From NCBI GenBank assembly GCA_013152435.1, contig JAADGJ010000061.1, forward strand, positions 5,034 through 69,033: DNA of 64,000 nt. Reading direction: 5' to 3'. A program made the translations under genes and the position numbers. Shown here in pieces: positions 8,805 through 57,505 of the stretch. The notes under the pieces are model-generated. The model was not told where the DNA came from, did not search any database, and saw only the letters and a list, made by a program, of their open reading frames with translations. This DNA comes from Chloroflexota bacterium (GTDB lineage: Bacteria; Chloroflexota; Anaerolineae; DUEN01). Within the stretch, counting starts at the first letter, position 1, and every line of letters begins with the position of its first letter.

Positions 8805-10505
8805 GTGTTTCCTATTCAAGCGTTCTCATCGATCTTTCAGAGACGCCGTGCCACCCTCGGGTGGTATGGCGTCTTTCTCGTGCTGGCCGGCTTGTGGCTC
8901 CTGGCCTCTTCCTGTTCCCGCTCTCAACCCCCGGTCCCGACCGCCGGACCGCCTCCGCCCGCCCCTGTGGCGACGTGGACGCCCACCCCGTTGCCTCCCA
9001 CCCCCACGCCGACGGCGACCCCAGGGCGACGGAACATCACGGTGGGATTGTCCCTGTCCGCCGCGACCCTGGACCCGCTTTTGTTGCCCTGGGACGATCC
9101 GGCGGCCCGGTTTCTGGTGGATGCCCTGTTCGATCGGCTGATGCCGCCCGACGCGGCCGATGGACGCCTGACGTCGGGGATCGTGCAGGCCTGGCGCGTG
9201 TCGGAGGACGGGCGCGCCATCACCCTCACGGTGCGTTCCGGTGTGGCCTGGCATGACGGCCGTCCGGTCACGGCCGAGGATGTAGCGTTTACCATCCGGG
9301 CGGCCCTGGACCCGGATCGGGACAGCCCCTACTTTGTGCGGCTCATGCCCGTTCGCTCGGTTGAGGTGGCTGGGGAGGCCACGGTGGTCGTGCGGCTGGA
9401 CGAGCCCTCCTGTCCCACGCTGACGGCCCTGGGCGATCTCCCGGTGGTGCCGGCGCATCGCTTGCGAGAGGGGGCATGGGAGGCGTTTGGGCGTGTCCCC
9501 GTCGGCAGCGGCCCGTTGCGCTTCGTCGAATGGCAGGGGGACGGCGCGTTCACCCTCTCGGCCGCGGAGGGCCATTGGCGGGCCCGGCCGCGGATCGCCA
9601 CCTGGTACGTGCGGCTGCTCTCCGCCGGGGAGATGGCGGGCGCGTGGGAGGCTGGCGAGCTGGATATCGCGATCCTGCCCCGCGCGTTGGCGCTGGACCC
9701 GCCATCCGATTGGCCTATCCGATGGGCGCCGGGACTGGAGTATGTGGGCGTCTTCTTCAACCAGGAGCGATTGGGGCTCTCCGATGCTCGCGTGCGTCGG
9801 GCGCTGTCCATGGCCCTCGATCGCTCACGGCTGAATCAACTCGTCCTGGGCGGTCGCGGGCTTCCGTTGGCCGCGCCCTGGCTGCCCTCGACCTGGGCCA
9901 TTCAACCCGCGCCGACGCCGCCGCCATTCGACCCGGAGCGGGCGGGGGGATTGCTGGACGCGGCCGGCTGGCGGGATGAGGACGGGGACGGATGGCGGGA
10001 GAGGGGGGATGAGCCTCTGCTGGTCCGCGTCAAGACGAACGGCGAGAACCCGGTCCGGCGTGATCTGGCCATGCTGGTGGCGGCGGCCTACCGCTCCGTT
10101 GGCGTGCCCGCCGAGGTGGAGATCGTGCCTTACTTCAGCCTGATCGACGCGCTGTTCCGACACGATTACGATGTGGCCGTCTTCAGCTGGCCCATCGATC
10201 TGGACCCGGATCCGTCGCGCTACTGGCGCTCCGATCAGACTGAGCCGCGCCGTGGCTTCAACCTGACCGGGTGGCGGGATGATCGCACCGATGTTCTGTT
10301 GCGGGAGGGGTATGCGGCCCGGGCGTGCGCGTTCGACGAGCGCCGGGAGGCTTATCACGCGCTGGCCGTGCATCTGGCGGAGCAGCGGCCCGTGGATGTC
10401 CTGTTTGCGCTGCCCGCAGGCGTCGTCGTCCGGCCGGGGCTTCAGGGCGTAACGGTCAGTCCCTTCGCCGGCGTGGGGGCATCGTTTCCGGACTGGCGGT
10501 GGTGA
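8805..10505 (+). CDS. second ABC substrate-binding lipoprotein, family 5
   Basis: Signal/lipobox LLASSCS, a Pro/Thr-rich linker, then an SBP family-5-like body. Its position at the end of the operon is unusual. Confidence 0.7.
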   Translation: MFPIQAFSSIFQRRRATLGWYGVFLVLAGLWLLASSCSRSQPPVPTAGPPPPAPVATWTPTPLPPTPTPTATPGRRNITVGLSLSAATLDPLLLPWDDPAARFLVDALFDRLMPPDAADGRLTSGIVQAWRVSEDGRAITLTVRSGVAWHDGRPVTAEDVAFTIRAALDPDRDSPYFVRLMPVRSVEVAGEATVVVRLDEPSCPTLTALGDLPVVPAHRLREGAWEAFGRVPVGSGPLRFVEWQGDGAFTLSAAEGHWRARPRIATWYVRLLSAGEMAGAWEAGELDIAILPRALALDPPSDWPIRWAPGLEYVGVFFNQERLGLSDARVRRALSMALDRSRLNQLVLGGRGLPLAAPWLPSTWAIQPAPTPPPFDPERAGGLLDAAGWRDEDGDGWRERGDEPLLVRVKTNGENPVRRDLAMLVAAAYRSVGVPAEVEIVPYFSLIDALFRHDYDVAVFSWPIDLDPDPSRYWRSDQTEPRRGFNLTGWRDDRTDVLLREGYAARACAFDERREAYHALAVHLAEQRPVDVLFALPAGVVVRPGLQGVTVSPFAGVGASFPDWRW

Positions 10506-10684
10506 TTGGATATGGAGCCCCGGTTTCTCCGGGAGGCCGGAGCGCTGGATACCGGGCGTGTTGATTTGCCTCATTCGACTCTTCGGGTACAATGGCGGCA
10601 ATCCCGGGGTGCCACTCTGTGTCGGATAATAGATCACTGCGTTCCGACGAGAGGATCAGGTTGCCCTGATAAGGAGAACGAGGC

Positions 10685-11734
10685 TTGACGCGAGAAGAGG
10701 TTCGGCTGACCGCGATGGCAGCCTGCGCCGGCTGAGCGAGCAAGCTGGCCCCAGAGGCCCTGGCGCAGGTCCTGCGTCCACTTCAAAACCTATTCCCGCC
10801 CGAGGCGCATCCCGAGGTGTTGGTCGGCCTGGGCGCGGTGGATGACGCCGCGGTCTATCGTCTGAACGATCGGCAGGCCATCATCAGCACCACCGATTTC
10901 TTCACGCCCGTGGTGGATGATCCCTATGATTATGGGGCGATCGCCGCGGCCAATGCCATGAGCGATGTGTACGCCATGGGGGGCGATGTCCTCTTCGCCT
11001 TGAACATCGCCGCTTTTCCCGCGGATATGGATCCGGATGTGATCGCTCGGATCCTGCGCGGTGGGGCGGACAAAGTGATGGAGGCGGGAGGGGTGATCGC
11101 CGGAGGGCACACGATCCAGGATCAGGAGCCCAAGTATGGCCTGGCGGTCGTGGGCATGGTGCACCCGGATCGGATCTTCACCAAGGGGGGCGCCCGGCCG
11201 GGCGATACGCTGTTCCTCACCAAACCGCTGGGGACCGGCGCGATCAGCACGGCCCTCAAGCGCGGGCTCGCGCGGGCCGATCACGTGAGCGCTATGGTCG
11301 AGAGCATGAAGCGGCTGAATCGCGTCGCGGCCATGGTTGCCCGGGAGGTCGGCGTTCGGGCGGCCACGGACATCACCGGCTTTGGACTGCTGGGACATGC
11401 CAGCGAGATGGTCCAGGCGAGCGGCGTGGGATTCCGCTTCCGGATGGGCGCGATCCCGCTCTTGCCCGGGGCGGCCGAGTACGCCGCCGAGTGGATCTTC
11501 CCGGGGGGCTCGCACAACAATAAGTCCTTCTACCGTTCCCTGGTGCGCTTCGGCGAGGAGATTCCCGAGGAGCGACAGATGCTTTTGTGGGATGCTCAGA
11601 CCTCGGGCGGGCTGTTGGTCGCCGTCCCGCCCGGCCGGAGTGAGGATTTCCGAACCCTATGTGCGGATCGTGGACAATCGGTTTGGGAGATCGGCGAGGT
11701 GATCGAGGGGACGGGGATTGAGGTAGTCGCCTGA
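10685..11734 (+). CDS. selD: selenide, water dikinase (selenophosphate synthetase) SelD with an in-frame UGA = selenocysteine at residue 17
   Basis: The ORF track starts at 10817, but the upstream in-frame sequence (TTG 10685 with RBS AAGGAG 8 nt upstream) reads LTREEVRLTAMAACAG-U-ASKLAPEALAQVL... This aligns gap-free with the E. coli SelD N-terminus [24 protein letters not shown]. The UGA at 10733-10735 sits exactly at Cys17, and the Lys20 equivalent is conserved. The downstream sequence is a typical SelD/AIR-synthase-related fold (GGHTIQDQEPKYGLAVVG, LFLTKPLGTG). Confidence 0.75.
10733..10735 (+). other. UGA selenocysteine recoding codon inside selD
   Basis: In-frame TGA flanked by conserved SelD active-site residues. 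A GC-rich region 10744-10770 could fold into the required bacterial SECIS hairpin, but I could not fold it reliably by eye. Confidence 0.65.
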
Positions 11735-11756: not shown

Positions 11757-11794
11757 AGAAAACGGAGGGGACGGCCGTCCCCTCCGTTTTTTCC
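11757..11794 (+). terminator. rho-independent terminator of selD
   Basis: GAAAACGGAGGGGACGGCCGTCCCCTCCGTTTTTTCC: a perfect GC hairpin followed by T6. Confidence 0.65.
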
Positions 11795-30650: not shown

Positions 30651-30916
30651 TCGCAGCTCATTACCTCGCAGGCCGGGACATCCGTCCTGGCCACATGGTT
30701 GATTTCTCTCCCCAAAGGCGTGGCGAACAAGTGAATGAAGAGGATCCTGCGGTCCTGCAGGAGGCGTGCGGATAGGGTGCCCCTGGAGGGCGGGTGTTAT
30801 CCTCGCGTGTAAGGGGCTTCGGGGGTTGTAGGCGCTTGCCGGAGAGCCGGGCGGTGCTCCGGCGGGGCAACCTCCTGAGCCACCGGGTGAAAACGATCCT
30901 ATGGTGTGATAGGGCT

Positions 30917-31714
30917 ATGCCGGAATCGTCCGTTTCTCATCTTAAGACGTTAGATCGGGCTCTTCAAGTTCTCTCCCTCTTCAGCGTGGAACAGCCGGAG
31001 TGGGACTACACGTGCATGGCCGAGACCCTGGGCCTGCACAAGAGCATCGTCTATCGAATCCTCACCACGTTCGAGCGGTACGGATATGTGATGCGCCAGC
31101 CGGCCAGCGGACGATTCCGTCTTGGATTCCGCTTCGTGGAGTTGGGCAACCTGGTTTTGTCCAACATCGACCTGCGTACGATCGCCCATCCCTTCATGGA
31201 GGACCTGGTGCGCGCCGTGCGTGAGACGGCCTTCCTGACCGTCGTGAGCGGCCATGAGAGCGTATGCATCGATCGAGCGGAGAGCCCGCACCTGCTCCGG
31301 CTGACCATGGAGATCGGTGGACGATATCCCCTGTACGCCGGCGCGTCGAATCGGTTGCTCATGGCCTACCTGCCGGAGGAGGAGATCGAGGCGATCATCG
31401 CCAAGGGGCTGAAGGCTTACACGCCGAACACACTGGTCGATCCCGATGCGCTACGCGCTTCCCTGGCCGAGATCCGGCGTCAGGGATATGCGTTGAGCTC
31501 CTCGGAGTTGACGCCGGGGATGTCCGCCCTCTCGGTGCCGCTCAGGAACAGCAATCACGAGGTCGTGGCCGCGCTCAGCCTGGCCGGCCCCAGCGAGCGG
31601 TTCGGCGATGATCGCTGGCCGGAGATGCTGACCCGGCTCCAGGCCACCGCGGAGGCGATCTCACAGCGGCTGCTGGCCTGGCGGGTGCCGCAGTCCGGCC
31701 GGGCCGGGCTCTGA
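30917..31714 (+). CDS. IclR-family transcriptional regulator
   Basis: N-terminal wHTH (LDRALQVLSLF...TLGLHKSIVYRILTTFERYGYV) plus an IclR effector domain. Start reassigned to the ATG at 30917. Confidence 0.8.
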   Translation: MPESSVSHLKTLDRALQVLSLFSVEQPEWDYTCMAETLGLHKSIVYRILTTFERYGYVMRQPASGRFRLGFRFVELGNLVLSNIDLRTIAHPFMEDLVRAVRETAFLTVVSGHESVCIDRAESPHLLRLTMEIGGRYPLYAGASNRLLMAYLPEEEIEAIIAKGLKAYTPNTLVDPDALRASLAEIRRQGYALSSSELTPGMSALSVPLRNSNHEVVAALSLAGPSERFGDDRWPEMLTRLQATAEAISQRLLAWRVPQSGRAGL

Positions 31715-31867
31715 TCGAGGCGGGCGTCTCCCGTTGTGATGGCATTCAGAGATGGGTTTGTTTCGCCTTCCCCAACCAGTTCGCTGGAGAGGAGGTGGTG
31801 TCTTGCAGAGAGATCGCGTGGTCGTCGTATCCGCTTCATACAATCATCACCGAGAGGAGGTCTGAAC

Positions 31868-33541
31868 ATGAGAGACTCTCGTCAGTGGCTGGTCCTGCCC
31901 AGCTTGATCGTCGTGTTGGCGTTGTTGCTGGCAGCCTGTGCCCCCTCCACGCCAGCTCCGGCGGAGGCCCCCGCGGCTGAGGAGGCGACTCAGCCGGCCG
32001 AGGAGGCACCCGCGGCCGAGGAACCCCAGGAAGTGGTCTTCACGTATGTAGAGGGCCAGGTCGTCAGCACCATCGACCCGGCCAAGCACGTGGATGAGTC
32101 CTCCCTCCACGCGGTCATCAACCTGTACGATCCGCTCGTGCGCCCGAAGCTGGAGGAGAACTCCATGGAGCCAGGGCCGTGGGTGGCGGAGAGCTGGACC
32201 GTCTCCGATGATGGTCTGACCTACACCTTCAAGATCCGCCAGGGGATCAAGTTCCATGATGGCAGCGAGCTCACCGCGGAGGACGTGCAGTTCTCCATGG
32301 AGCGGATGCTGGCGCTGAAGAAGGGCTTCTCCTGGCTGTGGAACGGCGTCCTGGAGCCGGGCAGCATCGAGGTGCCGGACGACTACACCGTCGTCTTCCA
32401 TCTGAAGCAGCCTTACGCCCCCTTCCTGGCCACGCTGATCCAGCTCTTCATCGTCAACAAGGATCTGGTGATGGCCAACCTGCAGCCGGGCGACTTCGGC
32501 GAGATGCAGGATTATGGCCAGGCGTTCCTGGAGGAGAACGAGGCCGGGTCCGGCCCGTACGTGAAGGAGGCCTGGGAGCGCGGTTCGAAGTTCGTCTTCC
32601 GGCGATTCCCCGACTACTGGAAGGGATGGGAGCCCGGCCAGATCGATAAGGTGAACTACCTGATCGTCACGGAGGAGGCGACCAAGAAGACCCTGCTCCA
32701 GTCGGGTGAGGCCGACATGGTCGACCAGTGGATGACCGTGGAGAGCTACGAGGAGCTGGCCAAGAACCCGGACATCACCGTCCAGGTCGATCCCAGCGTG
32801 CAGCTCTTCCATCTGCCCATGAACACCCAGAAGGCGCCCACGGATAACATCCACCTGCGCAAGGCCATCGCCTACGCGTTCGACTACGAGACGGCCGTCA
32901 AGGAGATCATCCCCGGCTCCGTGCAGGCGGCAGGTCCGGTGCCCGTGCGGGCCTGGGGCCATGCGGATGACGTGTTCGTCTACTACCAGGACATGGAGGA
33001 GGCCAAGAAGCACTTCGAGGCGTCCGGGTTCAAGCCGGGCGAGGTGGAGCTGGATTACTGGTTCCCGGCTTCGGTGCCCATGGAGCGCAAGATCGGCCTC
33101 CTGCTGGCGTCCAACCTGCAGGAACTGGGCATCAAGCTCAACATCAACCCCGTGCAGTGGGCGAACATCACCGAGGCCGCGACCAGCGTGGAGACCTCGC
33201 CTCACCTGACCGGCATCTTCGACACGCTGAAGTACCCCCATCCGGATAGCCATACCTACGGTATGTATCACCCGTCGTGCTGGGGGAGCTATCGCTGTCT
33301 GTCCTGGTACGACAACCCGGAGGTGACGGCGCTTCTGGAGAAGGCGCGAGCCACGGTCGATCCTGAGGAGCAGATCGAGCTCTACAAGGAAGCGCAGCGC
33401 AAGATCGTCATGGACGCGCCCAGCATCTACATCGCCAACCCGGCCCATCGCATCGCCTATCGCAACCGCGTGAAGGGCTATACGTACGTGGGCCTGCTGG
33501 GCTGGGATCTGTCGTTCTACACGCTACGTATCGAGGACTGA
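31868..33541 (+). CDS. ABC transporter substrate-binding lipoprotein, family 5 (peptide)
   Basis: Start at the ATG at 31868 (RBS GAGAGGAGG). Signal/lipobox LALLLAAC followed by an Ala/Pro/Glu-rich linker. Paralogous to the 4322 SBP (shared WTVSDDGLTYTFKIRQGIKFHDG block). Confidence 0.85.
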   Translation: MRDSRQWLVLPSLIVVLALLLAACAPSTPAPAEAPAAEEATQPAEEAPAAEEPQEVVFTYVEGQVVSTIDPAKHVDESSLHAVINLYDPLVRPKLEENSMEPGPWVAESWTVSDDGLTYTFKIRQGIKFHDGSELTAEDVQFSMERMLALKKGFSWLWNGVLEPGSIEVPDDYTVVFHLKQPYAPFLATLIQLFIVNKDLVMANLQPGDFGEMQDYGQAFLEENEAGSGPYVKEAWERGSKFVFRRFPDYWKGWEPGQIDKVNYLIVTEEATKKTLLQSGEADMVDQWMTVESYEELAKNPDITVQVDPSVQLFHLPMNTQKAPTDNIHLRKAIAYAFDYETAVKEIIPGSVQAAGPVPVRAWGHADDVFVYYQDMEEAKKHFEASGFKPGEVELDYWFPASVPMERKIGLLLASNLQELGIKLNINPVQWANITEAATSVETSPHLTGIFDTLKYPHPDSHTYGMYHPSCWGSYRCLSWYDNPEVTALLEKARATVDPEEQIELYKEAQRKIVMDAPSIYIANPAHRIAYRNRVKGYTYVGLLGWDLSFYTLRIED

Positions 33542-33559
33542 CGTCTGAGATGTGGCGCT

Positions 33560-33590
33560 GGTGGGGGCAGGGCATCGCTTTGCCCCCACC
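33560..33590 (+). promoter_or_regulatory. GC-rich stem-loop between the SBP and permease genes (no U-tract; likely mRNA stabiliser/attenuator)
   Basis: GGTGGGGGCA-loop-TGCCCCCACC, a perfect 10-bp stem. Confidence 0.3.
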
Positions 33591-33610
33591 GGCCCGTTGG
33601 GGTATGGCCC

Positions 33611-34618
33611 ATGTACTACGAGTACCTGATTCGACGCTTGCTGCAGATGATCCCCGTCCTGTTGGGGATCTCGATCCTGATCTTCATCCTCTCTCGGGTG
33701 GTCCCCGGCGATCCAGTGCGTTTGGCGCTGGGGCCGGAGGCTACGCAGGAGCAGATCGAGGCGTATCGCAAAGAATTGGGGTTGGATCAGCCGATCCATA
33801 TCCAGTACCTGAACTACCTGCGTGGCCTGACCCACGGTCAGCTCGGCCGATCGTTGCGCACAAATCGTGATGTTATCAAGGATATTCGAGATTTCTTTCC
33901 GGCGACCTTCGAGCTGACCACGGTGGCCATGGTCTTCGCCGTGCTGGTGGGCATACCGCTGGGCATCACCTCCGCATTGCACAAGGACGCCTGGCAGGAT
34001 CAGGGGACCCGGGTGCTGGCGTTATCCGGTGTGGCGCTGCCCCGCTTCTGGTTGGGCATCCTGTTGCAGCTGGTGTTCGCCTATTGGCTGGGGATCTTGC
34101 CCACCATCGGGCGGGCCAGCCAACCGCCCCAACACATCACCGGGTTGTATCTGCTGGATAGCCTGTTGACCGGGGATGCCCGCGCGTTCTGGGACAGCCT
34201 CAGGCATATCGCGCTGCCCGCCTTCACCCTCTCGCTGGCCACGCTGGCCCAGATCATGCGGCTCACCCGCGCCTCGATGATCGAGCAGATGCGGATGGAG
34301 TATATCCAGGCCTCTCGCGCCTATGGACTGCCTGAGAACCTCATCGTTTATAAGTACATGTTGAAGAACGCGTTCACCTCCACGCTGACCATCATCGGGT
34401 TGACATATGGGTTCCTCCTGGGGAACGCCTTTCTGGTGGAGTTCGTGTTCGCGTGGCCGGGCATGGCCCGGTACGGCGCGCAGGCGGTCATTTACAAGGA
34501 TTTCAACGCGGTGGTGGCGGTGACGACCGTGGTCGGTATCGCTTATCTCCTCGTGAATTTCGTGGTGGATCTGCTCTACGGGTTCCTGGATCCACGCATC
34601 CGTTTGGGAGCGCGCTAG
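33611..34618 (+). CDS. peptide ABC transporter permease (DppB-like)
   Basis: Multi-TM BPD-transporter permease, paralogous to 6635..7699. Confidence 0.85.
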   Translation: MYYEYLIRRLLQMIPVLLGISILIFILSRVVPGDPVRLALGPEATQEQIEAYRKELGLDQPIHIQYLNYLRGLTHGQLGRSLRTNRDVIKDIRDFFPATFELTTVAMVFAVLVGIPLGITSALHKDAWQDQGTRVLALSGVALPRFWLGILLQLVFAYWLGILPTIGRASQPPQHITGLYLLDSLLTGDARAFWDSLRHIALPAFTLSLATLAQIMRLTRASMIEQMRMEYIQASRAYGLPENLIVYKYMLKNAFTSTLTIIGLTYGFLLGNAFLVEFVFAWPGMARYGAQAVIYKDFNAVVAVTTVVGIAYLLVNFVVDLLYGFLDPRIRLGAR

Positions 34619-35551
34619 ATGAGCACAGATCAAGGTGGCACGAACGCTTTGGCGGCCTCGGTGGGCGATCCCATGAGGTTGCAGGCGGGACGCCGGGAGG
34701 AGTGGCGGCGCGCCTGGTATCGGATGCGCCGGAGCGCGGTCTCCCTGGTCGGCCTGGGGATCGTGTTGACTGTGATCCTGGCCGCCATCTTCGCCCCGTA
34801 CATCACCCCGTACCCCGAGGATGCGGGGAACGCGGTTCACTTCGCCAACGCTCATGAGCCGCCCAGCATGAAGCACCTCTTCGGCACCGATGAGATCGGC
34901 CGTGACGTGCTGACGCGCGTGGTCTTCGGCGCCCGGATCTCCCTGGTGTTGGGGATCGTGGTGCTCTCCATCGCCATCGGGATCGGCGTCCCGCTGGGGC
35001 TGATCGCCGGGTATTGGGGCGGCCGGGTGAGCACGATCATCATGCGAACGACCGACATCTTCCTGGCCATCCCGCCTCTGGTGCTGGCATTGGCCGTGAG
35101 CGCGGCGCTGACGCCCAACCTGACCACTTCCATGGTCGCCATCGCCTTTGGCTGGTGGCCGTGGTTCACCCGGCTGGTGTACGGCGAGGTGCTGTCGGTC
35201 AAGGAGGAGCTGTTCGTCGAGGCCGCGTACTCTCTGGGCGCCGGCCGTTTGCGCATCGCGTTCAAGGAGATCCTCCCGAACGTGCTCTCCCCGATCCTGG
35301 TCAAAGGGACCCTGGATATGGGATTCGTGATCCTGATCGGCGCCAGCCTCTCGTTCCTCGGGTTGGGGGCCCAGCCGCCCTCACCGGCCTGGGGGACGTC
35401 CATCGCCGAGGGGCGTGTGTATCTGCCCGGAGCCTGGTGGGCGGCCACCTTCCCCGGACTGGCCATCTTCGTCACCGTCCTCGGCTTCAACCTGCTGGGG
35501 GACGGGCTGCGGGACATCTTCGATGTGGAAGTCGAGCGCTGGGGGGTGTGA
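34619..35551 (+). CDS. peptide ABC transporter permease (DppC-like)
   Basis: Multi-TM permease, paralogous to 7721..8764. Its stop overlaps the next start (ATGA). Confidence 0.85.
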   Translation: MSTDQGGTNALAASVGDPMRLQAGRREEWRRAWYRMRRSAVSLVGLGIVLTVILAAIFAPYITPYPEDAGNAVHFANAHEPPSMKHLFGTDEIGRDVLTRVVFGARISLVLGIVVLSIAIGIGVPLGLIAGYWGGRVSTIIMRTTDIFLAIPPLVLALAVSAALTPNLTTSMVAIAFGWWPWFTRLVYGEVLSVKEELFVEAAYSLGAGRLRIAFKEILPNVLSPILVKGTLDMGFVILIGASLSFLGLGAQPPSPAWGTSIAEGRVYLPGAWWAATFPGLAIFVTVLGFNLLGDGLRDIFDVEVERWGV

Positions 35552-36582
35552 TGGCCGAGTTCCTGTTGGACGTGCGCGATCTTCACGTCGAGTTCGGCGG
35601 ATACGAGGGCCTGGCTCGCGTCATCGATGGGGTCAGCCTGTATGTGCGCCGGGGGGAGACGGTTGGCCTGGTGGGGGAGACGGGATGCGGCAAGTCGGTG
35701 ACGGCCCGGGCGGTGATGGGGCTGTTGCCCGGCACCGCTCGCATCACGCAGGGGGAGATCCTCTTCAAGGGGCAGAACCTGCTGGACCTGGACCCGCAGG
35801 CGATGCAGACCCAGGTGCGCGGCCGCGGCATTTCCATGATCTTCCAGGACCCCATGAGCTCGTTGAACCCGGTGTTCACCATCGGCGAGCAGTTGAGCGA
35901 TGTGATCCGCTGGCAGGGCGTCTCTCGGGTGGGGTTGCTCCACTACCTGCGCCGTTCGCTGGACCGCGAGGAGCGCAGACGGATCGAGGATCGGGTGGTG
36001 GAGATGCTGGACAAGGTGCGTATCCCCACGCCGCGGGAGATGTTGAACCGGTATCCGGTGCAGCTATCGGGCGGGATGCGGCAGCGGGTGTTGATCGCCC
36101 TGGCCCTGATCAATCGCCCGGAGCTGGTCATCGCCGATGAGCCTGGGACCGCGTTAGACGTCTCCATCCAGGATCAGATCCTGGCCCTGATCCGGGATCT
36201 GGTCGCCAGCGAGGGGATCTCCGTCCTCTACATCACCCACGATCTGGGCGTGGCCCGGTCTCTGTGCGATCGGATCTACGTGATGTACGCGGGCCAGGTG
36301 GCGGAGACGGCGCCGGCCGAATCCCTGTTTCGCGAGCAGTATCACCCCTACACGCGGGGCCTGCTCGATTCGATCCCCCGGCTGACCGGCCGATTGGGGG
36401 AGGGGATCGAGGGGCGCATCCCGGATTATCGCTCGCCGTTGCGGGGGTGCCGCTTCTACGACCGTTGCCCGCGCCGCATGCCTCACTGCCAGGACGTGCG
36501 GCCGGAGCCCATCGAGATGGCGCCGGAGCATTTCGTGGCCTGCCACCTGTATTCCGATGACTCAGCAGGGGGTGCGTCGTGA
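35551..36582 (+). CDS. peptide ABC transporter ATP-binding protein (DppD-like)
   Basis: Start reassigned to the ATG at 35551 (MAEFLLDVRDLHVEF...). Walker A GETGCGKS, signature LSGGMRQR. Confidence 0.85.
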   Translation: MAEFLLDVRDLHVEFGGYEGLARVIDGVSLYVRRGETVGLVGETGCGKSVTARAVMGLLPGTARITQGEILFKGQNLLDLDPQAMQTQVRGRGISMIFQDPMSSLNPVFTIGEQLSDVIRWQGVSRVGLLHYLRRSLDREERRRIEDRVVEMLDKVRIPTPREMLNRYPVQLSGGMRQRVLIALALINRPELVIADEPGTALDVSIQDQILALIRDLVASEGISVLYITHDLGVARSLCDRIYVMYAGQVAETAPAESLFREQYHPYTRGLLDSIPRLTGRLGEGIEGRIPDYRSPLRGCRFYDRCPRRMPHCQDVRPEPIEMAPEHFVACHLYSDDSAGGAS

Positions 36583-37589
36583 GCCAGCCTGAGAACGGAT
36601 ATCTGCTGGCGGCGCGAGGGCTGACCAAACACTTTCCGATCTATCGCGGCATCGTCCTGCAGCGGCAGGTCGGGGCCGTCCGGGCCGTGGACCAGGTGGA
36701 CCTCACCATCATGCCCGGCGAGACGCTGGCGTTGGTGGGGGAATCCGGGTCGGGCAAGACCACCATCGGCAAGCTGTTGATCCGGGTCCTGCGTCCTACG
36801 GCCGGGGAGATCTGGTTCGGCGGACAGGATATCGCCCATCTGGACGACGCGGCGTTGCGGCCCGTCCGTCGTCGGATGCAGATGGTGTATCAGGACCCTA
36901 CCTCCTCCTTGAACCCGCGTCGCCGTGTGAAGGACATCATTGAGGATCCGTTGGTGATCCATAAGATCGGCGACGCGGCCCAGCGGGCCAGCCGGGTGGA
37001 GGAGCTGCTTCACCTGGTGGAGCTGCCGGTGGAGTTCGCCTATCGCTATCCCAACGCGCTCAGCGGCGGCCAGAAACAGCGGGTGGGGATCGCCCGGGCG
37101 CTTGCCCTCAATCCGGCCTTCATCGTCCTGGATGAGCCCACATCGGCTCTGGACGTGTCCGTGCAGGCCAAGATCATCGCCCTGCTCAAGCGGTTGCAGG
37201 CGGAGTTAGGGCTGACGTACCTCTTCATCACCCACGATTTGCGGGTGGTGCGGAACCTGGCCACCCGGGTGGGGGTGATGTACCTGGGGCGCATCGTGGA
37301 ACAGGCGCCCACGGAGATCCTGTACGCCAACCCGGCGCACCCCTACACGCGAGCGCTGCTGTCCGCCATCCCGGCGCTGGACGAGGAGGAGCTGGCCGCG
37401 ATCCCCCAGAAGGTCCCTTTGCAGGGCGAGATCCCCAGCGCTGCCCATGTGCCTCCCGGATGCGCCTTTCACCCGCGCTGTCCGGCCCGCTTCGCCCCGT
37501 GCGATCGCGTGGTCCCGCGGGAGAGCGTGGTGGCAGAGGGACATCTCGTGCGCTGCCATCTGTACGACCCCGAGTATGCGCCCGCGTAG
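36579..37589 (+). CDS. peptide ABC transporter ATP-binding protein (DppF-like)
   Basis: Walker A GESGSGKTT, signature LSGGQKQR. GTG start overlapping the previous stop (GTGA). Confidence 0.85.
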   Translation: MSQPENGYLLAARGLTKHFPIYRGIVLQRQVGAVRAVDQVDLTIMPGETLALVGESGSGKTTIGKLLIRVLRPTAGEIWFGGQDIAHLDDAALRPVRRRMQMVYQDPTSSLNPRRRVKDIIEDPLVIHKIGDAAQRASRVEELLHLVELPVEFAYRYPNALSGGQKQRVGIARALALNPAFIVLDEPTSALDVSVQAKIIALLKRLQAELGLTYLFITHDLRVVRNLATRVGVMYLGRIVEQAPTEILYANPAHPYTRALLSAIPALDEEELAAIPQKVPLQGEIPSAAHVPPGCAFHPRCPARFAPCDRVVPRESVVAEGHLVRCHLYDPEYAPA

Positions 37590-37778
37590 CAGCGGGCTGG
37601 GCCCGGGCAGGCCAGAGGCTGTAGCGGAGGCGAGCTGACGAGTCGTCCCCCCGGGCCTTCCCAGGGAAGCGGTCAAAGGCGCCCGTGACGGTCTTTGCCA
37701 CACGTCGCGCTCAGGTGTGGCGCTGCCACCGGCGGAGCGCCTCTACTTAATGTGCTCTGTTTCGGAGGTTGAGCTGTC

Positions 37779-38834
37779 ATGACGTTGATCGACGCCGATG
37801 TCATTCAGGATGCCGTGGTCCGGATGTTGCAGGTGAATATGGGGCTGCGAGCGGGGGAGCGGCTGCTGGTCGTCAGCGATTATCCCAATGAGATGCAGTG
37901 GTGTTCGGCGGATCCGTCGCTGTTGGAAAGCATCTGCCGACGGACGCTGCTGGGGCGGGCTGTGGCGGATATCGCCCGGGATCGCTTTCCCGACTCCTCC
38001 GTGACCTTCCTGGCCTTTCCCTCCACCGGCCAGAGCGGTAAGGAGCCGCCGCCGGATGTGGCGGCGGCCATGCGCCAGGCGCAAGTCGTCATCGCGATCA
38101 CGTCTTTCTCCCTCTCCCACACGGATGCCCGGGAAGGGGCGTGTCGGGCGGGCGCTCGCGTGGCCTCCATGCCGCGCTTCTTGCCGGAGATGTTCGAGCC
38201 GGGCGGGCCGATGGATGTGGATTACATGGCCGTGGAGCGGCGCACCCAGGCCATCGCCCGGGCCATCACCGGGGCGGAGGAGGTACGCGTCACGTCCCCG
38301 GACGGGACGGATATCCGCTTCAGCGTGGCCGACCGGCCGGGACAGGTGGATGCGGGCATTTACGATCGCCCTGGCGCGTGGGGGAATCTCCCGGCCGGGG
38401 AGGCGTACTGCACGCCGGTGGAGGGCTCCGGGCGAGGGCGGATCGTGGTCGTCCCGGGGTGGCACGCTCGCCTGGAGGAGCTCATGACGCTACATATCGA
38501 GAACGGCGAGCTGGTGGCCATCGACGGCGGCGGCCGCGTGGGAGAGGACCTGCGCGATCTGCTGCGCCCGGGCGATCCGTCGTCGCCCTATCGGGAGCGC
38601 CGGAACCTGGGCGAGTTCGGCGTTGGCACAAACCCGAACGCCCGGCGTGTGGATATCACTTTAGAGGCGGAGAAGATCATGGGGACGGTGCATCTGGCGC
38701 TGGGGGATAACTCGCACATGGGCGGACGGGTGAGCGCGGACTTCCACCAGGATTTCGTGGTCCCCAGGGCCAGCTTCTGGCTGGACGGCCGTCCGGTGAT
38801 GGAGAATGGTCAGCTGTTGATCGAGGAGGCGTAA
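37779..38834 (+). CDS. M29-like (aminopeptidase T/AmpS/NicX-fold) family protein, paralogue 1
   Basis: N-terminal pattern ...GLRAGERLLVVSD... and its length (351 aa) fit the aminopeptidase-T-like fold. Assignment is by motif recall, not by search. Confidence 0.45.
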   Translation: MTLIDADVIQDAVVRMLQVNMGLRAGERLLVVSDYPNEMQWCSADPSLLESICRRTLLGRAVADIARDRFPDSSVTFLAFPSTGQSGKEPPPDVAAAMRQAQVVIAITSFSLSHTDAREGACRAGARVASMPRFLPEMFEPGGPMDVDYMAVERRTQAIARAITGAEEVRVTSPDGTDIRFSVADRPGQVDAGIYDRPGAWGNLPAGEAYCTPVEGSGRGRIVVVPGWHARLEELMTLHIENGELVAIDGGGRVGEDLRDLLRPGDPSSPYRERRNLGEFGVGTNPNARRVDITLEAEKIMGTVHLALGDNSHMGGRVSADFHQDFVVPRASFWLDGRPVMENGQLLIEEA

Positions 38835-38839
38835 CGCGT

Positions 38840-39904
38840 ATGGAACTCGCGATTGGCACGGAACCCACCCCGACGTACCTGTCGTTTGAGCTAGCTCGCG
38901 GCGCTCGTCGGCTGATCGAGGACGTGATGCTGGTGAAGCCGGGCGAGAACGTGGTGATCACCGTGGACACCTCCAGTGATTGGCGGGTAGCCGAGGCCAC
39001 GGCCAGGGCCGCGTTCGCGGCGGGCGCCAGCCCGGTCGTCGTCTGGTACGAGGGGCGCCCGGACGCGGTCATGGAGCCCCCGCCTCCGGTGGCGGGAGCC
39101 ATCGCCCGCGCCGATGTGTGGATCGAGTACGCCGTAGCGTACATCCTGCACACGGAGGCGTACAAGGCCGCGTTGGCGAACGGATGTCGCTACATCTGCC
39201 TGACCGGCATGGATGTGGACATGATGGTCCGCACCATCGCCAATGTGGATTATCCCAAGATGATCGAGCTCAGCCACGTGTTGGGCGCGGCCATCGCCCA
39301 GGCGGACGAGATCCGGGTCACCAGCCCGGCGGGCACGGATCTGGTGGCGCGCATGGGCGGACGCAAGATCCGCTACTCCGGCAAGCTGGCGGATACGCCC
39401 GGCGAGCCCATCATGCTGGGCGGACAGATCTCCTGGTGCCCGCTGGAGGAGACCATCAACGGCACGCTGGTGTTCGATGGTGCCCTCTGGCCTCCCAAGG
39501 AGATCGGCCTGCTTCGTCAGCCCGTGCGCCTGACGGTGGAACAGGGGCGTGTGACCCGGGTGGAGGGGGGACCCGAGGCGAAGGTGCTGGAGCGCTGGTT
39601 CGCCTCCTTTGACAATCCGAACATCTATCGCATCGCGCACTACTCGCTGGGGTTCAACCCCGGCGTGACCCGGCCCACGGGGCGCATCGTCGAGGATGAG
39701 CGGGTGTTCGGCTGCATCGAGTTTGGCATCGGCAGCCAGGGGAAGCAGATCGGCGGCCCGGGCTGGGATGCCGGGGGACACACCGATGGCATCGTGCTCA
39801 ACCCGTCCATCTACCTGGACGGCGAGCCGCTGGAGGAGGAAGGGGTGTACGTCCGACCGGACGTCGTGGCCGCCTGTCGCGCGTTGGGCGTGCCAGGGTA
39901 CTGA
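38840..39904 (+). CDS. M29-like (aminopeptidase T/AmpS/NicX-fold) family protein, paralogue 2
   Basis: LVKPGENVVITVD...AAFAAGASPVVVWYEGRPD resembles the M29 N-terminal region. Tandem paralogue of the previous gene. Confidence 0.45.
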   Translation: MELAIGTEPTPTYLSFELARGARRLIEDVMLVKPGENVVITVDTSSDWRVAEATARAAFAAGASPVVVWYEGRPDAVMEPPPPVAGAIARADVWIEYAVAYILHTEAYKAALANGCRYICLTGMDVDMMVRTIANVDYPKMIELSHVLGAAIAQADEIRVTSPAGTDLVARMGGRKIRYSGKLADTPGEPIMLGGQISWCPLEETINGTLVFDGALWPPKEIGLLRQPVRLTVEQGRVTRVEGGPEAKVLERWFASFDNPNIYRIAHYSLGFNPGVTRPTGRIVEDERVFGCIEFGIGSQGKQIGGPGWDAGGHTDGIVLNPSIYLDGEPLEEEGVYVRPDVVAACRALGVPGY

Positions 39905-39913
39905 GTTTGGGGA

Positions 39914-41032
39914 ATGGTGATTATGGGGACCGCAAACAGACTGTACGAGCAGCCACTCACCATGGAGGTCGCCCGCATGGCCGCTTTCGGCGGCGCGGTG
40001 TTGGGCGGCGGTGGCGGCGGTGACATCGAGAATGGGCTTCAGCTGGCGCAACTGGCGCTGGAGATGGGACAGCCGCGCGTCCTGCCGGCGGATTCGCTGG
40101 CGAACGACGTGCTCGTCGTGACCGTCTCCGCGGTGGGGGCCCCGGCCGCGTCGGAGCAGTTCATCAAGCCGATCGATTACGTGGACGCCTTGAACCTCTT
40201 GCAGGAGCACATGGACAAGCCGGTGGGCGGGCTCATTACGAATGAAAACGGCGGCATGGCCACCGTCAACGGCTGGCTGCAATCGGCGCTTTCAGGCCTG
40301 CCCGTGGTGGATTGCCCGTGCAACGGCCGCGCACATCCCACCGGGCTGATGGGGGCGATGGGGCTGGACGAGCTTCCGAACTATGTCTCTCGCCAGGCGG
40401 CGGTGGGTGGTAACCCTCATGCCGGTCGTCGGGTGCGGCTGTATGTGGAGGGCGATCTACGTCGCGCGGCGCGATTGGTGCGCCAGGCCGCGGTGGAGGC
40501 GGGCGGCCTGGTAGGGGTGGCCCGCAATCCGGTCACCATGGCGTATGCGCGGGAGCATGGCGCGCCGGGAGCGCTGGCCCGGGCAGTGGAGGTCGGCCAG
40601 GCCCTGTTGGCGGCGTCCGATCCGGAGGCCGCGGCGCAGGCGGTGGCGGAGACGTTGGGCGGGCGGATCGTCGCTCGCGCCCGGGTTGCCCGGGTGGACC
40701 TGGTCACCCGAGGGGGGTTCGATGTCGGGACCGTGTACCTGGAGGACGATCTGCAGCTGACCTTCTGGAACGAGTACATGACCCTGGACCGCCGGGGGGA
40801 GCGATTGGGGACCTTCCCCGATCTCATCGCCACGCTGGCGGCTGACGAATCCCGGCCGTTGTCCTCGGCGGAGGTGAAGGAGGGGCAGGAGATCTTCGTG
40901 TTGCACGTCCCGCGCTCCCGTCTGCGGTTGGGGTCGGGGATGAGGCGGCCCAACCTGCTGCGGGCGGCGGAGGAGGCGGTCGGCCGACCGCTGGTCTCGT
41001 TCGTGTTCCCCGAGGAGAACTCTGAGCGCTGA
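39914..41032 (+). CDS. DUF917-like protein (glycine-rich GGGGGG loop)
   Basis: AFGGAVLGGGGGGD motif and size (~370 aa) typical of DUF917. Recalled, not searched. Confidence 0.4.
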   Translation: MVIMGTANRLYEQPLTMEVARMAAFGGAVLGGGGGGDIENGLQLAQLALEMGQPRVLPADSLANDVLVVTVSAVGAPAASEQFIKPIDYVDALNLLQEHMDKPVGGLITNENGGMATVNGWLQSALSGLPVVDCPCNGRAHPTGLMGAMGLDELPNYVSRQAAVGGNPHAGRRVRLYVEGDLRRAARLVRQAAVEAGGLVGVARNPVTMAYAREHGAPGALARAVEVGQALLAASDPEAAAQAVAETLGGRIVARARVARVDLVTRGGFDVGTVYLEDDLQLTFWNEYMTLDRRGERLGTFPDLIATLAADESRPLSSAEVKEGQEIFVLHVPRSRLRLGSGMRRPNLLRAAEEAVGRPLVSFVFPEENSER

Positions 41033-41156
41033 TTGGATCAGAAGCACCTGATCGGGAATCCCAGGACGAACCGGCTTCCATTTCCAGTAGGGACGCCGGA
41101 GGATTTCCTGGAATGGTATCGGAGGCAGTTCGCGGAATCAGGTTGAGGGGGGATCT

Positions 41157-42098
41157 GTGACGCTCAAGCAGGCTATAGAAGCGTATGAGCTGTTGGACAG
41201 CGCGCTTGTGGACGGCGATCATGTGGCGGCCCTATTGCATAACCGAGGGCTGACGGTGGAGACGTTCACCGTGGAGGGCGATAGGGGGCGCACGGACTTC
41301 GTTCGGGCCGTCCTGTACGGGGAGCGGGGAAAGCGGACCGGCGGAGATGCCCCCACATTGGGCATCATCGGCCGGTTGGGTGGCATCGGCGCCCGGCCGA
41401 CGGCTCTGGGGCTGGTGTCGGACGCGGATGGGGCGATCACGGCCATCACCTGCGCGCTGAAGCTGGCCGATCTGTGCCGCGCGGGCGATCGCTTGCCGGG
41501 CGACGTGGTCATTGCCACCCACATCTGCCCGCACGCTCCGACGGAGCCGCACGAGCCGGTGCCGTTCATGGGCTCACCGGTGGATATCGCCACCATGAAC
41601 CGGCACGAGGTCGCCGATGAGATGGACGCCATCCTGTGCATTGACACCACCCGGGGGAATTGGGTCATCAATCAGCGCGGCTTCGCTATCTCCCCCACGG
41701 TGATGCAGGGATGGATCCTGAAGGTGAGCGCCGATCTGCTGCGCATCATGTCCTACGTCACCGGGCGACCTCCGGTGGTCTTCCCGCTGAGCATGCAGGA
41801 CATCACCCCCTATGGCAACGGTGTGGATCATCTGAACAGCATCCTGCAGCCGGCGACGGCGACGGACGCTCCGGTGGTGGGCGTGGCGCTGACGGCGGAG
41901 ATACCGGTACCGGGGTGTGCGACGGGTGCCAGCCAGATCGTTGATATCGAGGCCGCCGCCCGGTTCTGCGTGGAGGTGGCCAAGGCGTTCACGCGCGGGG
42001 AGTGCCAGTTCTACGATCCGGACGAGTTCCGACGCCTGGTCGCCCTTTACGGCGAGATGCGCCATCTGCAGACCATGGGGCGCGAGGATGCGGCGTGA
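41157..42098 (+). CDS. DUF1177-like protein
   Basis: ~313 aa. Its position between DUF917-like and AroM-like genes matches a recurrent DUF917/DUF1177/AroM neighbourhood. GTG start with a GAGGGGGG RBS. Confidence 0.35.
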   Translation: MTLKQAIEAYELLDSALVDGDHVAALLHNRGLTVETFTVEGDRGRTDFVRAVLYGERGKRTGGDAPTLGIIGRLGGIGARPTALGLVSDADGAITAITCALKLADLCRAGDRLPGDVVIATHICPHAPTEPHEPVPFMGSPVDIATMNRHEVADEMDAILCIDTTRGNWVINQRGFAISPTVMQGWILKVSADLLRIMSYVTGRPPVVFPLSMQDITPYGNGVDHLNSILQPATATDAPVVGVALTAEIPVPGCATGASQIVDIEAAARFCVEVAKAFTRGECQFYDPDEFRRLVALYGEMRHLQTMGREDAA

Positions 42099-47003: not shown

Positions 47004-47164
47004 TTGCCGTTTTATTTATCCCCCGCTTGATAAATCCTATTTAGTCCCCATTAAGTCGCGTCTTCTATAATTGGGTCAAGTTCAATCAAACGCAGGGCAT
47101 CTTCTCAGGAATCCCGAGATCGAGAAGATTACTCAACCATTCAACCATCAAACTGGAGAAGGAG

Positions 47165-47818: not shown

Positions 47819-47835
47819 TCCTATCACAGCCAAGA

Positions 47836-48215
47836 TGTCTAAGGGGTCTCCCTCAATCACCAACTCCACAGGGGATGGTGGTGGAGGGGATCGCCCCTCC
47901 ACGGAAAACCCCACTTTTCCTGCCTGCACCTGCCTTTCTCGGTCCTTTCCGAAGGGCCCAGGCCGAGGCCAGGCAGGTTGAAGGCAGAAGAAGGGCTTTT
48001 TCCGGGGGGGCGGTAGCCCCTCCGAAGAAGCCTATTTTCAGCCCCTCACCTGCCCCGTGGGGCCGGAGGCCACCGGCCAAAGCCCCAACCAGGCAGGGAA
48101 AAGGCGAGAGAAAGCGTTTTTCTGCGGAGGGGCTTCCCCTCGGAGGGGCTTCCCCTCCGCACCTCCCCTTTCGGGTGTGACCGCCCGTGGAGGGGAAAAG
48201 CGACAGGCGGGGGCC
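47836..48215 (+). repeat. copy C (longest) of the dispersed multi-hairpin repeat family
   Basis: Same orientation as copy D. Contains GGTGGAGGGGATCGCCCCTCCAC and a tandem duplication GGAGGGGCTTCCCCTC x2 (48126-48157). The overlapping ORFs 47875..48180 and 48046..48375 are rejected. Confidence 0.55.
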
Positions 48216-50917: not shown

Positions 50918-50975
50918 TCGGTGTGAGGTGGGGCCGCTCCGCTCGCGGCCGATGTGGACATGTAGGAGGGAGCGT

Positions 50976-51293: not shown

Positions 51294-51374
51294 GCGTGCA
51301 CGGATGAGGCGGAGTGATGAGGTCGTGTACGAGACGAATCTTTGAGGCTAGGAAGCAAGAAAGGGAGGAGAACG

Positions 51375-53533: not shown

Positions 53534-53557
53534 ACTTTGGTATAGATACATTCGTGA

Positions 53558-53815
<258 letters not shown>

Positions 53816-57487: not shown

Positions 57488-57505
57488 CCGTCGATCAGGC
57501 CTTAG

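What the first reader, a model, noticed from the sequence alone, without database searches (positions are those of the whole stretch)
10685..11734. selD carries an in-frame UGA at the Cys17 position: a selenocysteine-containing selenophosphate synthetase that the ORF track truncated
Translating upstream of the annotated start (10817) in the same frame gives LTREEVRLTAMAACAG-[TGA]-ASKLAPEALAQVLRPLQNLFPPEAHPEVLVGLGAVDDAAVY. This aligns gap-free with E. coli SelD residues 7-50 ([24 protein letters not shown]...DDAAVY). The TGA (10733-10735) sits exactly where the catalytic Cys17 is, and Lys20 is conserved. A TTG at 10685 preceded by AAGGAG gives Sec at residue 17. Sec-for-Cys SelD is known in some bacteria. 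It implies the organism has selA, selB and selC and probably other selenoproteins. It also means automated annotation of this genome will mis-start or split selD.
Basis: partly seen in the sequence, partly recalled or inferred. Interest (0 to 1): 0.75.

Follow-up and report, generated by a model that had tools for sequence, protein, structure and literature searches.

The report
Selenocysteine-containing SelD gene, truncated by annotation
The selenophosphate synthetase gene (selD) here carries an in-frame UGA that almost certainly encodes selenocysteine at the catalytic position, a well-known feature of this enzyme that gene callers routinely cut off, so the finding is correct but ordinary.

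Summary
TGA at 10733-10735 is in frame with the called ORF 10817-11734, and TTG 10685 follows AAGGAG. The 349-codon reading frame is a full-length SelD (TIGR00476, 385 bits). Codon 17 aligns with E. coli Cys17 and Lys20 with Lys20.

The TGA is not an error. A second assembly, 98.6-99.1% identical, has the same sequence. 79 of 80 related species-level loci, mostly Chloroflexota/Anaerolineae MAGs, carry TGA at this codon and one carries TGC. The peptide is conserved on both sides of the TGA.

A hairpin at 10762-10778 (7 bp, loop GUC, -8.6 kcal/mol, 33 nt after UGA) meets all four criteria of the published bacterial SECIS model. It is conserved and shows strong synonymous-site constraint. A weaker hairpin at 10747-10759 lies at the E. 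coli-like 11-nt spacing.

UGA is otherwise the normal stop: 26 of 36 supported ORFs end in it, including selD itself.

No selA, selB or tRNA-Sec lies in the window or about 11 kb of flanks, so that prediction is untested. One relative has tRNA-Sec and SelB adjacent.

Sec-containing SelD is the second most widespread bacterial selenoprotein, and its misannotation is documented. This is a new member of a known kind, of low interest. The only mildly new point is the tandem-hairpin layout downstream of the UGA.

The parts
10566..10593 (+). promoter-like site TTGCCT-16-TACAAT upstream of selD (weak, consensus match only)
10671..10676 (+). Shine-Dalgarno AAGGAG, 8 nt before the TTG start
   Evidence: read directly
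10685..11734 (+). full-length selD coding sequence: 349 codons plus stop, with TTG start, Sec at codon 17 and a TGA stop
   Evidence: The start is homologous to the ATG/GTG of MTREEIRLT in relatives.
10733..10735 (+). in-frame TGA, the predicted selenocysteine codon (residue 17, equivalent to E. coli Cys17)
10742..10744 (+). AAG codon for Lys20, invariant in all 81 sequences
10747..10759 (+). hairpin HP1, GGCC-CCAGA-GGCC, starting 11 nt after the UGA. It is weak in the window (4 bp, -5.3 kcal/mol). It is conserved as a structure among relatives, though the pairing register varies.
10762..10778 (+). hairpin HP2, GGCGCAG-GUC-CUGCGUC, the best SECIS candidate: 7 bp, apical loop 10769-10771, 33 nt between the UGA and the loop
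10817..11734 (+). truncated ORF (GTG start, 305 aa) as produced by stop-to-stop ORF calling and as stored in public protein sets
11759..11790 (.). G+C-rich 14-bp hairpin flanked by A and T runs, lying between the convergent selD and H+-PPase genes. It looks like a bidirectional intrinsic terminator.

Best explanation
Window 10685-11734 encodes a complete selenophosphate synthetase (SelD) whose catalytic N-terminal loop residue 17 is selenocysteine, encoded by UGA.

Inferred mechanism: SelB carrying Sec-tRNA(Sec) binds a stem-loop inside the coding sequence just downstream of the UGA. The most likely site is the 7-bp hairpin with the G-GUC-C apex at 10762-10778. The small hairpin at 10747-10759 may act as a spacer or helper. 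SelB then delivers Sec when the UGA reaches the A site, so translation continues to the true stop at 11732.

Shown here: the reading frame, family membership, alignment of the UGA to Cys17, clade-wide conservation of the UGA and of the peptide on both sides of it, and structure and synonymous-site constraint downstream.

Inferred, not shown: actual Sec insertion, SelB binding, and the presence of selA, selB and selC in this genome.
For: - **Family.** SelD HMMs score far above their cut-offs: TIGR00476 385 bits against 125, and NF002098 363 bits against 299. The TIGR00476 profile begins at residue 7, upstream of the TGA.
- **Catalytic position.** Alignment to E. coli SelD 3U0O puts the UGA on Cys17 and Lys20 on Lys20.
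- **Conservation of the codon.** 79 of 80 related loci have TGA at this codon, and L053 has TGC.
- **Conservation around the codon.** All 81 sequences have an upstream in-frame start and conserved residues on both sides.
- **Independent assembly.** GCA_054014295.1 differs at 81 positions over 6.9 kb, yet is identical across the TTG-to-TGA-to-hairpin stretch.
- **HP2 stability.** HP2 folds at -8.6 kcal/mol with z = -3.57, and 0 of 200 shuffles fold as well.
- **Fit to the bSECIS model.** HP2 meets the four criteria of PMC13188914 Fig. 2 (loop 3-9 nt, stem 4-16 bp, G in the first two loop positions, spacing 16-37 nt, MFE at or below -7.5). A strict version is met by 62 of 75 relatives, 58 of them at the same position.
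- **Pair counts.** Helix 2 is 88% paired, and 5 of its 7 pairs show changes on both sides.
- **Synonymous constraint.** Ala 31-33 is GCG in 66 of 69 sequences against a 31% background. Arg 43-45 is CGY in 64 of 66 against 53%. Leu 40-42 is YTG in 67 of 70 against 64%.
- **Recoding test.** Against synonymous recoding, mean z is -2.11 for HP2 and -1.74 for HP1. Seven control segments of the same genes give about 0.
- **UGA is otherwise a stop.** 26 of 36 Pfam-supported ORFs in the window end in TGA, including selD itself.
- **Machinery next to a relative's gene.** Locus L058 has tRNA-SeC and SelB next to its TGA-selD.
- **Literature.** SelD is among the two most widespread bacterial selenoproteins (PMC1794560, PMC13188914).
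Against: - No tRNA-Sec, selA or selB was found in the 64-kb window.
- None was found in about 8 kb to the left and 3 kb to the right of the window, read from the near-identical assembly.
- No Rfam family matches the region.
- Folding of the 50-68 nt after the UGA is not more stable than shuffles in this G+C-rich sequence (z = +0.1 and +0.27).
- The window's own z against synonymous recoding is only -0.88.
- RNAalifold on a fixed alignment returned almost nothing.
- HP2 lies 26 nt from the UGA, not the 11 nt of the E. coli minimal SECIS.
- There is no experimental evidence.
Confidence: 0.9

Rival explanations
1. The TGA is a genuine stop. The functional product is an N-terminally truncated SelD starting at GTG 10817 or nearby, or the gene is a pseudogene.
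For: This is what ORF calling and the public protein sets report. No Sec machinery is visible in the window.
Against: The 16 codons upstream of the TGA are open, have a start codon and a Shine-Dalgarno sequence, and are conserved in all 81 sequences, including the invariant RLT...G-[UGA]-A..K motif. The SelD profile starts upstream of the TGA. A product starting at 10817 would lack the loop carrying Cys/Sec17 and Lys20; from established knowledge of E. coli SelD, both residues are required for activity. The TGA is retained in 79 of 80 species, which is not how pseudogenes behave.
Confidence: 0.03
2. The UGA is read through without selenocysteine, for example by near-cognate Trp or Cys insertion promoted by the downstream hairpins. 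This would resemble the SECIS-independent read-through proposed for hymenopteran SPS1-UGA.
For: Downstream stem-loops can enhance read-through independently of Sec (discussed in bioRxiv 10.1101/014928). Sec machinery was not seen in the sequence available.
Against: The position is the catalytic Cys/Sec site, and its only non-UGA counterpart in the set is Cys. HP2 fits the SelB-type SECIS model, including the G-GU-N-C apex. A relative has SelB and tRNA-SeC beside its TGA-selD.
Confidence: 0.04
3. The TGA is a sequencing or assembly error, or the organism has reassigned UGA genome-wide.
For: None beyond the bare presence of an in-frame stop.
Against: The sequence is identical in an independent assembly that differs elsewhere. 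The TGA is conserved in 79 other species. TGA terminates 26 of 36 supported ORFs in the window, including selD.
Confidence: 0.01
4. Sec is inserted, but the SelB-binding element is HP1 (10747-10759, 11 nt after the UGA) rather than HP2. HP2 would then be an accessory structure.
For: HP1 sits at the spacing of the E. coli minimal SECIS. It is present in 72 of 80 loci and shows compensatory changes that alter amino acids, for example Gly/Ala to Asp/Val. Loci lacking HP2 keep a strong HP1 with G-rich loops. The SECIS listed for Acetomicrobium mobile SelD in BSepDB lies at the HP1 position (PMC13326102).
Against: In the window HP1 is only 4 bp at -5.3 kcal/mol. [quoted passage not shown] HP2 passes all four. 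Eight loci lack HP1 but have a strong HP2.
Confidence: 0.25

Closest known systems
Sec-containing bacterial SelD (described for Haemophilus influenzae, Aquifex aeolicus, many Deltaproteobacteria and Clostridia; PMC1794560, PMC13188914)
   Same: The same enzyme family, with the same N-terminal loop position encoded by UGA and a coding-region stem-loop immediately downstream. It shows the same annotation failure. A. aeolicus SelD (PDB 2YYE/2ZOD) aligns over residues 4-347, with SSGCAAK against CAG[U]ASK.
   Different: The lineage differs: Chloroflexota/Anaerolineae-type MAGs. In most members of this clade two hairpins follow the UGA, and the one that best fits the SECIS consensus lies 26 nt downstream.
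E. coli SelD (Cys17 form, PDB 3U0O)
   Same: The alignment is full length, residues 2-344 against 2-339, with E = 1.6e-79. Lys20 and the DDAAVY, DFF.P and GGH motifs are conserved.
   Different: E. coli has Cys where this gene has UGA. E. coli lacks 3 residues near position 38.
E. coli fdhF SECIS (from established knowledge: a minimal 17-nt stem-loop with a GGUC apex, 11 nt after the UGA)
   Same: HP2's apex GCAG-GUC-CUGC closely resembles the fdhF apex UGCA-GGUC-UGCA. It carries the conserved G and U in the loop, and it lies inside the coding sequence.
   Different: HP2 starts 26 nt after the UGA, not 11. It has no bulged U. The UGA itself is not in a lower stem. A separate small hairpin occupies the 11-nt position.
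Acetomicrobium mobile SelD entry in BSepDB (PMC13326102)
   Same: The peptide context is the same (RLTEL...SGUAAKLGP), and the sequence after the UGA (UGAGCAGCCAAAUUGGGUCCGGCGGACC) is homologous to the HP1 region here.
   Different: The part of that entry quoted in the paper shows only the HP1-position hairpin. The following codons (LNKLL) do not form an HP2.

Membership tests
SelD / selenophosphate synthetase (TIGR00476, NF002098; Pfam AIRS + AIRS_C) | Whole-protein HMM score above the curated cut-off | tested here: met
   TIGR00476 scores 385.3 bits against a cut-off of 125. NF002098 scores 363 bits against 299.
SelD / selenophosphate synthetase (TIGR00476, NF002098; Pfam AIRS + AIRS_C) | AIRS (PF00586) plus AIRS_C (PF02769) domain architecture | tested here: met
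   The precomputed domains of the 99-100% identical truncated product are PF00586 and PF02769.
SelD / selenophosphate synthetase (TIGR00476, NF002098; Pfam AIRS + AIRS_C) | N-terminal glycine-rich loop with Cys/Sec at the E. coli 17 position and Lys at the 20 position | tested here: met
   The motif G16-[UGA]17-A-S-K20 aligns to E. coli G16-C17-G-C-K20. It is invariant across all 81 sequences.
SelD / selenophosphate synthetase (TIGR00476, NF002098; Pfam AIRS + AIRS_C) | ATP-dependent synthesis of selenophosphate from selenide | not testable with these tools
   This needs an enzyme assay.
Bacterial selenoprotein gene (UGA recoded as Sec) | In-frame UGA aligned with Cys in homologues | tested here: met
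   E. coli has Cys17 at this position. Locus L053 has TGC at the same codon.
Bacterial selenoprotein gene (UGA recoded as Sec) | UGA conserved among orthologues, with coding conservation on both sides | tested here: met
   79 of 80 loci have TGA. The flanking residues are conserved and an upstream start codon is present in 81 of 81 sequences.
Bacterial selenoprotein gene (UGA recoded as Sec) | selA, selB and tRNA-Sec present in the same genome | not testable with these tools
   They are absent from the 64-kb window and from about 11 kb of flanks in the near-identical assembly. The rest of the genome could not be reached. In relative L058, tRNA-SeC and SelB lie beside selD.
Bacterial selenoprotein gene (UGA recoded as Sec) | Selenium actually incorporated into the protein | not testable with these tools
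   This needs 75Se labelling or mass spectrometry.
Bacterial SECIS consensus model (bSECISearch; criteria as given in PMC13188914 Fig. 2) | Apical loop of 3-9 nt on an upper stem of 4-16 bp | tested here: met
   HP2 has a 3-nt loop (GUC) and a 7-bp stem.
Bacterial SECIS consensus model (bSECISearch; criteria as given in PMC13188914 Fig. 2) | G in the first two loop positions (pattern N1-G-[G/U]-N-N2, with N1 and N2 paired) | tested here: met
   G68-G69-U70-C71-C72 fits the pattern, with G68 paired to C72.
Bacterial SECIS consensus model (bSECISearch; criteria as given in PMC13188914 Fig. 2) | 16-37 nt between the UGA and the apical loop | tested here: met
   The spacing is 33 nt.
Bacterial SECIS consensus model (bSECISearch; criteria as given in PMC13188914 Fig. 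2) | Minimum free energy at or below -7.5 kcal/mol | tested here: met
   HP2 alone folds at -8.6 kcal/mol.
E. coli fdhF-type minimal SECIS | SelB-binding minihelix placed 11 nt after the UGA, with a bulged U | tested here: not met
   HP2 starts 26 nt after the UGA and has no bulge. HP1 has the 11-nt spacing but lacks a G/U apex in the window.
Rfam SECIS families | Covariance-model match | tested here: not met
   There was no match at the gathering threshold over the window. At E up to 10 over 10600-10900, only two chance matches to unrelated families appeared.

The most novel reading that the evidence does not exclude
In this Chloroflexota-centred SelD clade the selenocysteine insertion signal is a tandem of two hairpins. 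One is an ancestral small hairpin at the classical 11-nt spacing, shared with SelD genes of other phyla. The other is a clade-specific second hairpin, 26 nt downstream, that carries the G-GUN-C apex. Both would be under selection and each could partly substitute for the other: loci that lost one keep a strong copy of the other. That would be a bipartite or redundant bacterial SECIS architecture, not the single stem-loop of the textbook model.
Probability: 0.3. Interest if true: 0.4.

Novelty: new member of a known kind. Interest (0 to 1): 0.2.

Why it matters
**Annotation.** The correct product is 349 aa with Sec17, not the 305-aa truncation held in public protein sets. All 120 nearest database homologues are truncated in the same way, so the error covers this whole clade.

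**Biology.** The gene marks the organism as a likely selenocysteine decoder. Other UGA-containing genes elsewhere in its genome may therefore also be split or shortened.

**Field.** None of this changes current understanding. SelD is already recognised as the second most widespread bacterial selenoprotein and as frequently misannotated (PMC1794560, PMC13188914, PMC13326102).

Tried and rejected
- **Single-sequence folding of the 50-68 nt after the UGA.** It is no more stable than dinucleotide shuffles (z = +0.10 and +0.27). This is uninformative in 66% G+C DNA, so I used comparative tests instead.
- **RNAalifold on a fixed 38-sequence alignment.** It gave 3 pairs and -0.1 kcal/mol. I set it aside because HP1 changes register between lineages. 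Explicit pair counts and per-sequence hairpin searches were used instead.
- **Rfam.** No match at the gathering threshold over the window. A permissive scan of 10600-10900 gave only two chance matches.
- **tRNA scan of the window.** No tRNA genes.
- **Pfam scan of 45 window ORFs.** No SelA, SelB, YbbB, YedE/YedF or FdhA.
- **Scan for other in-frame TGA genes in the window.** Only off-frame noise and ordinary gene junctions appeared. The two thioredoxin-fold ORFs at 50928-51896 have Cys, not UGA.
- **Reaching the rest of the genome.**
  - The exact-product look-up of the identical JGI entry P0122 failed.
  - Flanks from assembly GCA_054014295.1 added about 8 kb on the left and 3 kb on the right, with no selenium genes.
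- **Cluster look-up for a taxon name.** It gave no names.

Full report
**1. The observation**

AAGGAG lies at 10671-10676 and TTG at 10685. Sixteen sense codons follow (LTREEVRLTAMAACAG), then TGA at 10733-10735. The frame continues as ASKLAPEALAQVLRPL... to TGA at 11732-11734. Mechanical ORF listing reports only 10817-11734 (GTG start, 305 aa).

**2. What the frame encodes**

With the TGA read as a sense codon, the 349-residue product is a full-length selenophosphate synthetase.
- TIGR00476 scores 385 bits against a cut-off of 125, with profile position 1 at residue 7, upstream of the TGA.
- NF002098 scores 363 bits against a cut-off of 299.
- Against solved structures, it aligns to E. coli SelD (3U0O) over residues 2-344 against 2-339 (E = 1.6e-79).
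- Codon 17 falls on Cys17 and Lys20 on Lys20.
- It also aligns to Aquifex aeolicus SelD over residues 4-347.

**3. The TGA is real and conserved**

- Assembly GCA_054014295.1 is 98.6-99.1% identical, with 81 mismatches over 6.9 kb. It is identical across the whole TTG-to-TGA-to-hairpin stretch.
- A scan of one genome per bacterial species returned 80 related loci. Most are Chloroflexota/Anaerolineae MAGs, and they include Candidatus Amarolinea and Candidatus Roseilinea.
- 79 of those loci carry TGA at the homologous codon. One, L053 (labelled Dehalococcoidia), carries TGC.
- All 81 sequences (80 loci plus the window) have an in-frame start 12-30 codons upstream with no intervening stop.
- All 81 also share the invariant motif L-T-x5-G-[UGA/C]-A-x-K.
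- UGA is not reassigned. TGA terminates 26 of 36 Pfam-supported ORFs in the window, including selD itself.

**4. The annotation consequence is real**

All 120 best hits in the 5.8-billion-protein collection are N-terminally truncated. They begin either at the codon for residue 21 (M[AD]PEAL...) or further downstream. This includes entries that NCBI and JGI name SelD. The product identical to the window's (P0122) and its 99% relative (P0001) are both the 305-aa form.

**5. The insertion signal**

Two hairpins follow the UGA.

*HP2 (window 10762-10778)*
- Its sequence is GGCGCAG-GUC-CUGCGUC: 7 bp with a GUC loop.
- It folds at -8.6 kcal/mol with z = -3.57, and 0 of 200 shuffles fold as well.
- It satisfies all four constraints of the published bacterial SECIS model (PMC13188914, Fig. 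2):
  - a loop of 3-9 nt on a stem of 4-16 bp;
  - G in the first two loop positions (pattern N1-G-[G/U]-N-N2);
  - 16-37 nt from the UGA, here 33;
  - MFE at or below -7.5 kcal/mol.
- A strict, uninterrupted-stem version of the model is met by 62 of 75 relatives, 58 of them at this same position.
- On a 38-sequence alignment the helix is 88% paired, and 5 of its 7 pairs show changes on both sides. Examples at pair 36-40 are CAG/CUG, CAA/UUG and CAC/GUG.

*Synonymous sites in the stem are constrained well beyond the codon usage of the same genes*

| Codon (nt after UGA start) | Observed | Background | p |
|---|---|---|---|
| Ala 31-33 as GCG | 66/69 | 31% | 5e-30 |
| Arg 43-45 as CGC/CGU | 64/66 | 53% | 1e-15 |
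| Leu 40-42 as YUG | 67/70 | 64% | 3e-10 |

The loci are related, so the p-values overstate independence.

*Recoding test*

Each gene was recoded synonymously using its own codon usage.
- The native 36-nt segment is more stable, with mean z = -1.85, and 83% of genes fall below -1.
- Seven control segments elsewhere in the same genes give -0.28 to +0.14.
- Taken separately, HP1 gives -1.74 and HP2 gives -2.11, with controls at about 0.
- The window's own value is only -0.88, so the support is comparative and does not rest on the window alone.

*HP1 (window 10747-10759)*
- Its sequence is GGCC-CCAGA-GGCC, starting 11 nt after the UGA.
- It is weak here: 4 bp, -5.3 kcal/mol, and no G early in the loop.
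- Among relatives it is present in 72 of 80 loci, in shifting registers.
- It shows compensatory changes that alter the protein, for example GGC..GCC (Gly..Ala) to GAC..GUC (Asp..Val).
- Every locus has at least one of the two hairpins.
- Loci lacking HP2 (L065, L066, L070) keep a strong HP1 with G-rich loops.
- Eight loci have no HP1 of at least 4 bp, and those keep a strong HP2.
- The SECIS that BSepDB quotes for Acetomicrobium mobile SelD lies at the HP1 position.
- I therefore take HP2 as the likely SelB site in this window (about 0.6), with HP1 as the rival or as a helper.

**6. What could not be shown**

- No tRNA genes were found in the window, and no Rfam match.
- Pfam found no SelA, SelB, YbbB or FdhA among 45 window ORFs.
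- Here selD sits between an Opp-type ABC transporter operon and a convergent H+-pyrophosphatase gene. A promoter-like site lies at 10566-10593 and a terminator hairpin at 11759-11790.
- Flanks read from the near-identical assembly add about 8 kb on the left and 3 kb on the right, with no selenium genes.
- In relatives, recurrent selD neighbours are a class V aminotransferase (18 loci), a TusA/YedF-like protein (13 loci) and a YedE-like transporter (12 loci).
- L058 has tRNA-SeC and SelB directly beside its TGA-selD.
- So the machinery travels with this type of gene elsewhere, but its presence in this genome is an inference.

**7. Comparison with what is known**

- Zhang et al. 2006 (PMC1794560) report FdhA and SelD as the most widespread bacterial selenoproteins, and already list selenoproteins in Chloroflexi.
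[quoted passage not shown] - Mariotti et al. recovered the bacterial SECIS of Sec-containing SelD genes by RNA structure prediction (bioRxiv 10.1101/014928).

The finding is therefore a correct identification of a known kind of gene in a lineage where databases hold only truncated forms.

**8. Verdict**

- Novelty: a new member of a known kind.
- Interest: 0.2.
- The only point that goes slightly beyond the textbook is the tandem-hairpin arrangement and its complementary loss pattern. It is worth a reporter experiment but is not surprising to a specialist.

Noticed in passing
L001-L080, codons 4-16 after the Sec-UGA; window 10747-10778: Two hairpins follow the UGA. Every locus has at least one. 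Loci that lack HP2 keep a strong HP1 with a G-rich loop, and loci that lack HP1 keep a strong HP2.
   Followed up: partly
window 10736-10738 and the homologous codon in 75 loci: The Ala codon immediately after the UGA is GCG in 59 of 75 genes, against 31% GCG elsewhere in the same genes. No pairing partner was identified for this constrained synonymous site.
   Followed up: no
L058: 6696-8444 (-), 9807-9896 (-), and selD from about 10001: A MAG labelled Spirochaetaceae has SelB (GTP_EFTU plus SelB-wing_3) and tRNA-SeC directly upstream of its TGA-containing selD. It is the only one of the 80 loci with tRNA-Sec within 10 kb.
   Followed up: partly
flanks of selD in L001-L080 (e.g. L036 7968-9143, L025 90-689, L005 2980-4182): Recurrent neighbours of selD in relatives are a class V aminotransferase (cysteine desulfurase / Sec lyase type) in 18 loci, a TusA/YedF-like protein in 13 loci and a YedE-like Sulf_transp protein in 12 loci. 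None of these is next to selD in the window.
   Followed up: partly
L024, L042, L046, L049, L058, L063, L070, L072: SelD genes 56-60% identical to the window's, with the same TGA and hairpins, lie in MAGs labelled Acidobacteriota, Fermentibacteria, Spirochaetales, Chitinispirillaceae and Eisenbacteria. This could reflect horizontal transfer or binning and labelling errors.
   Followed up: no
window 43575-47003 (within the 44001-48000 composition bin): G+C content drops to 0.564 here, against 0.61-0.68 elsewhere. The region holds a 1142-aa BTAD / AAA_16 / TPR regulator and may have been acquired horizontally.
   Followed up: no
window 56465-59428 (-): This 987-aa ORF has no Pfam match and is a shadow of the ATP synthase gamma and beta genes on the + strand (56573-57487 and 57521-58960). 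The F-type ATP synthase operon spans about 52583-59400.
   Followed up: yes
window 8805-10505 (+): The longest ORF for the solute-binding protein upstream of selD is 566 aa from a GTG start. The near-identical NCBI assembly aa, so the true start is uncertain.
   Followed up: no
window 30794-42098: An IclR regulator is followed by a second Opp/Dpp-type ABC transporter. After that come an M29-like ORF, an S-Me-THD-like protein (39914-41032) and a DUF1177 protein (41157-42098). This is a compact cluster of unknown substrate.
   Followed up: no
window 50928-51896: Two thioredoxin-fold ORFs (DUF2703-like and AhpC/TSA-Redoxin) belong to families that have selenoprotein members elsewhere. Here both carry Cys (CPSH and CNHC) and have no in-frame TGA.
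   Followed up: yes
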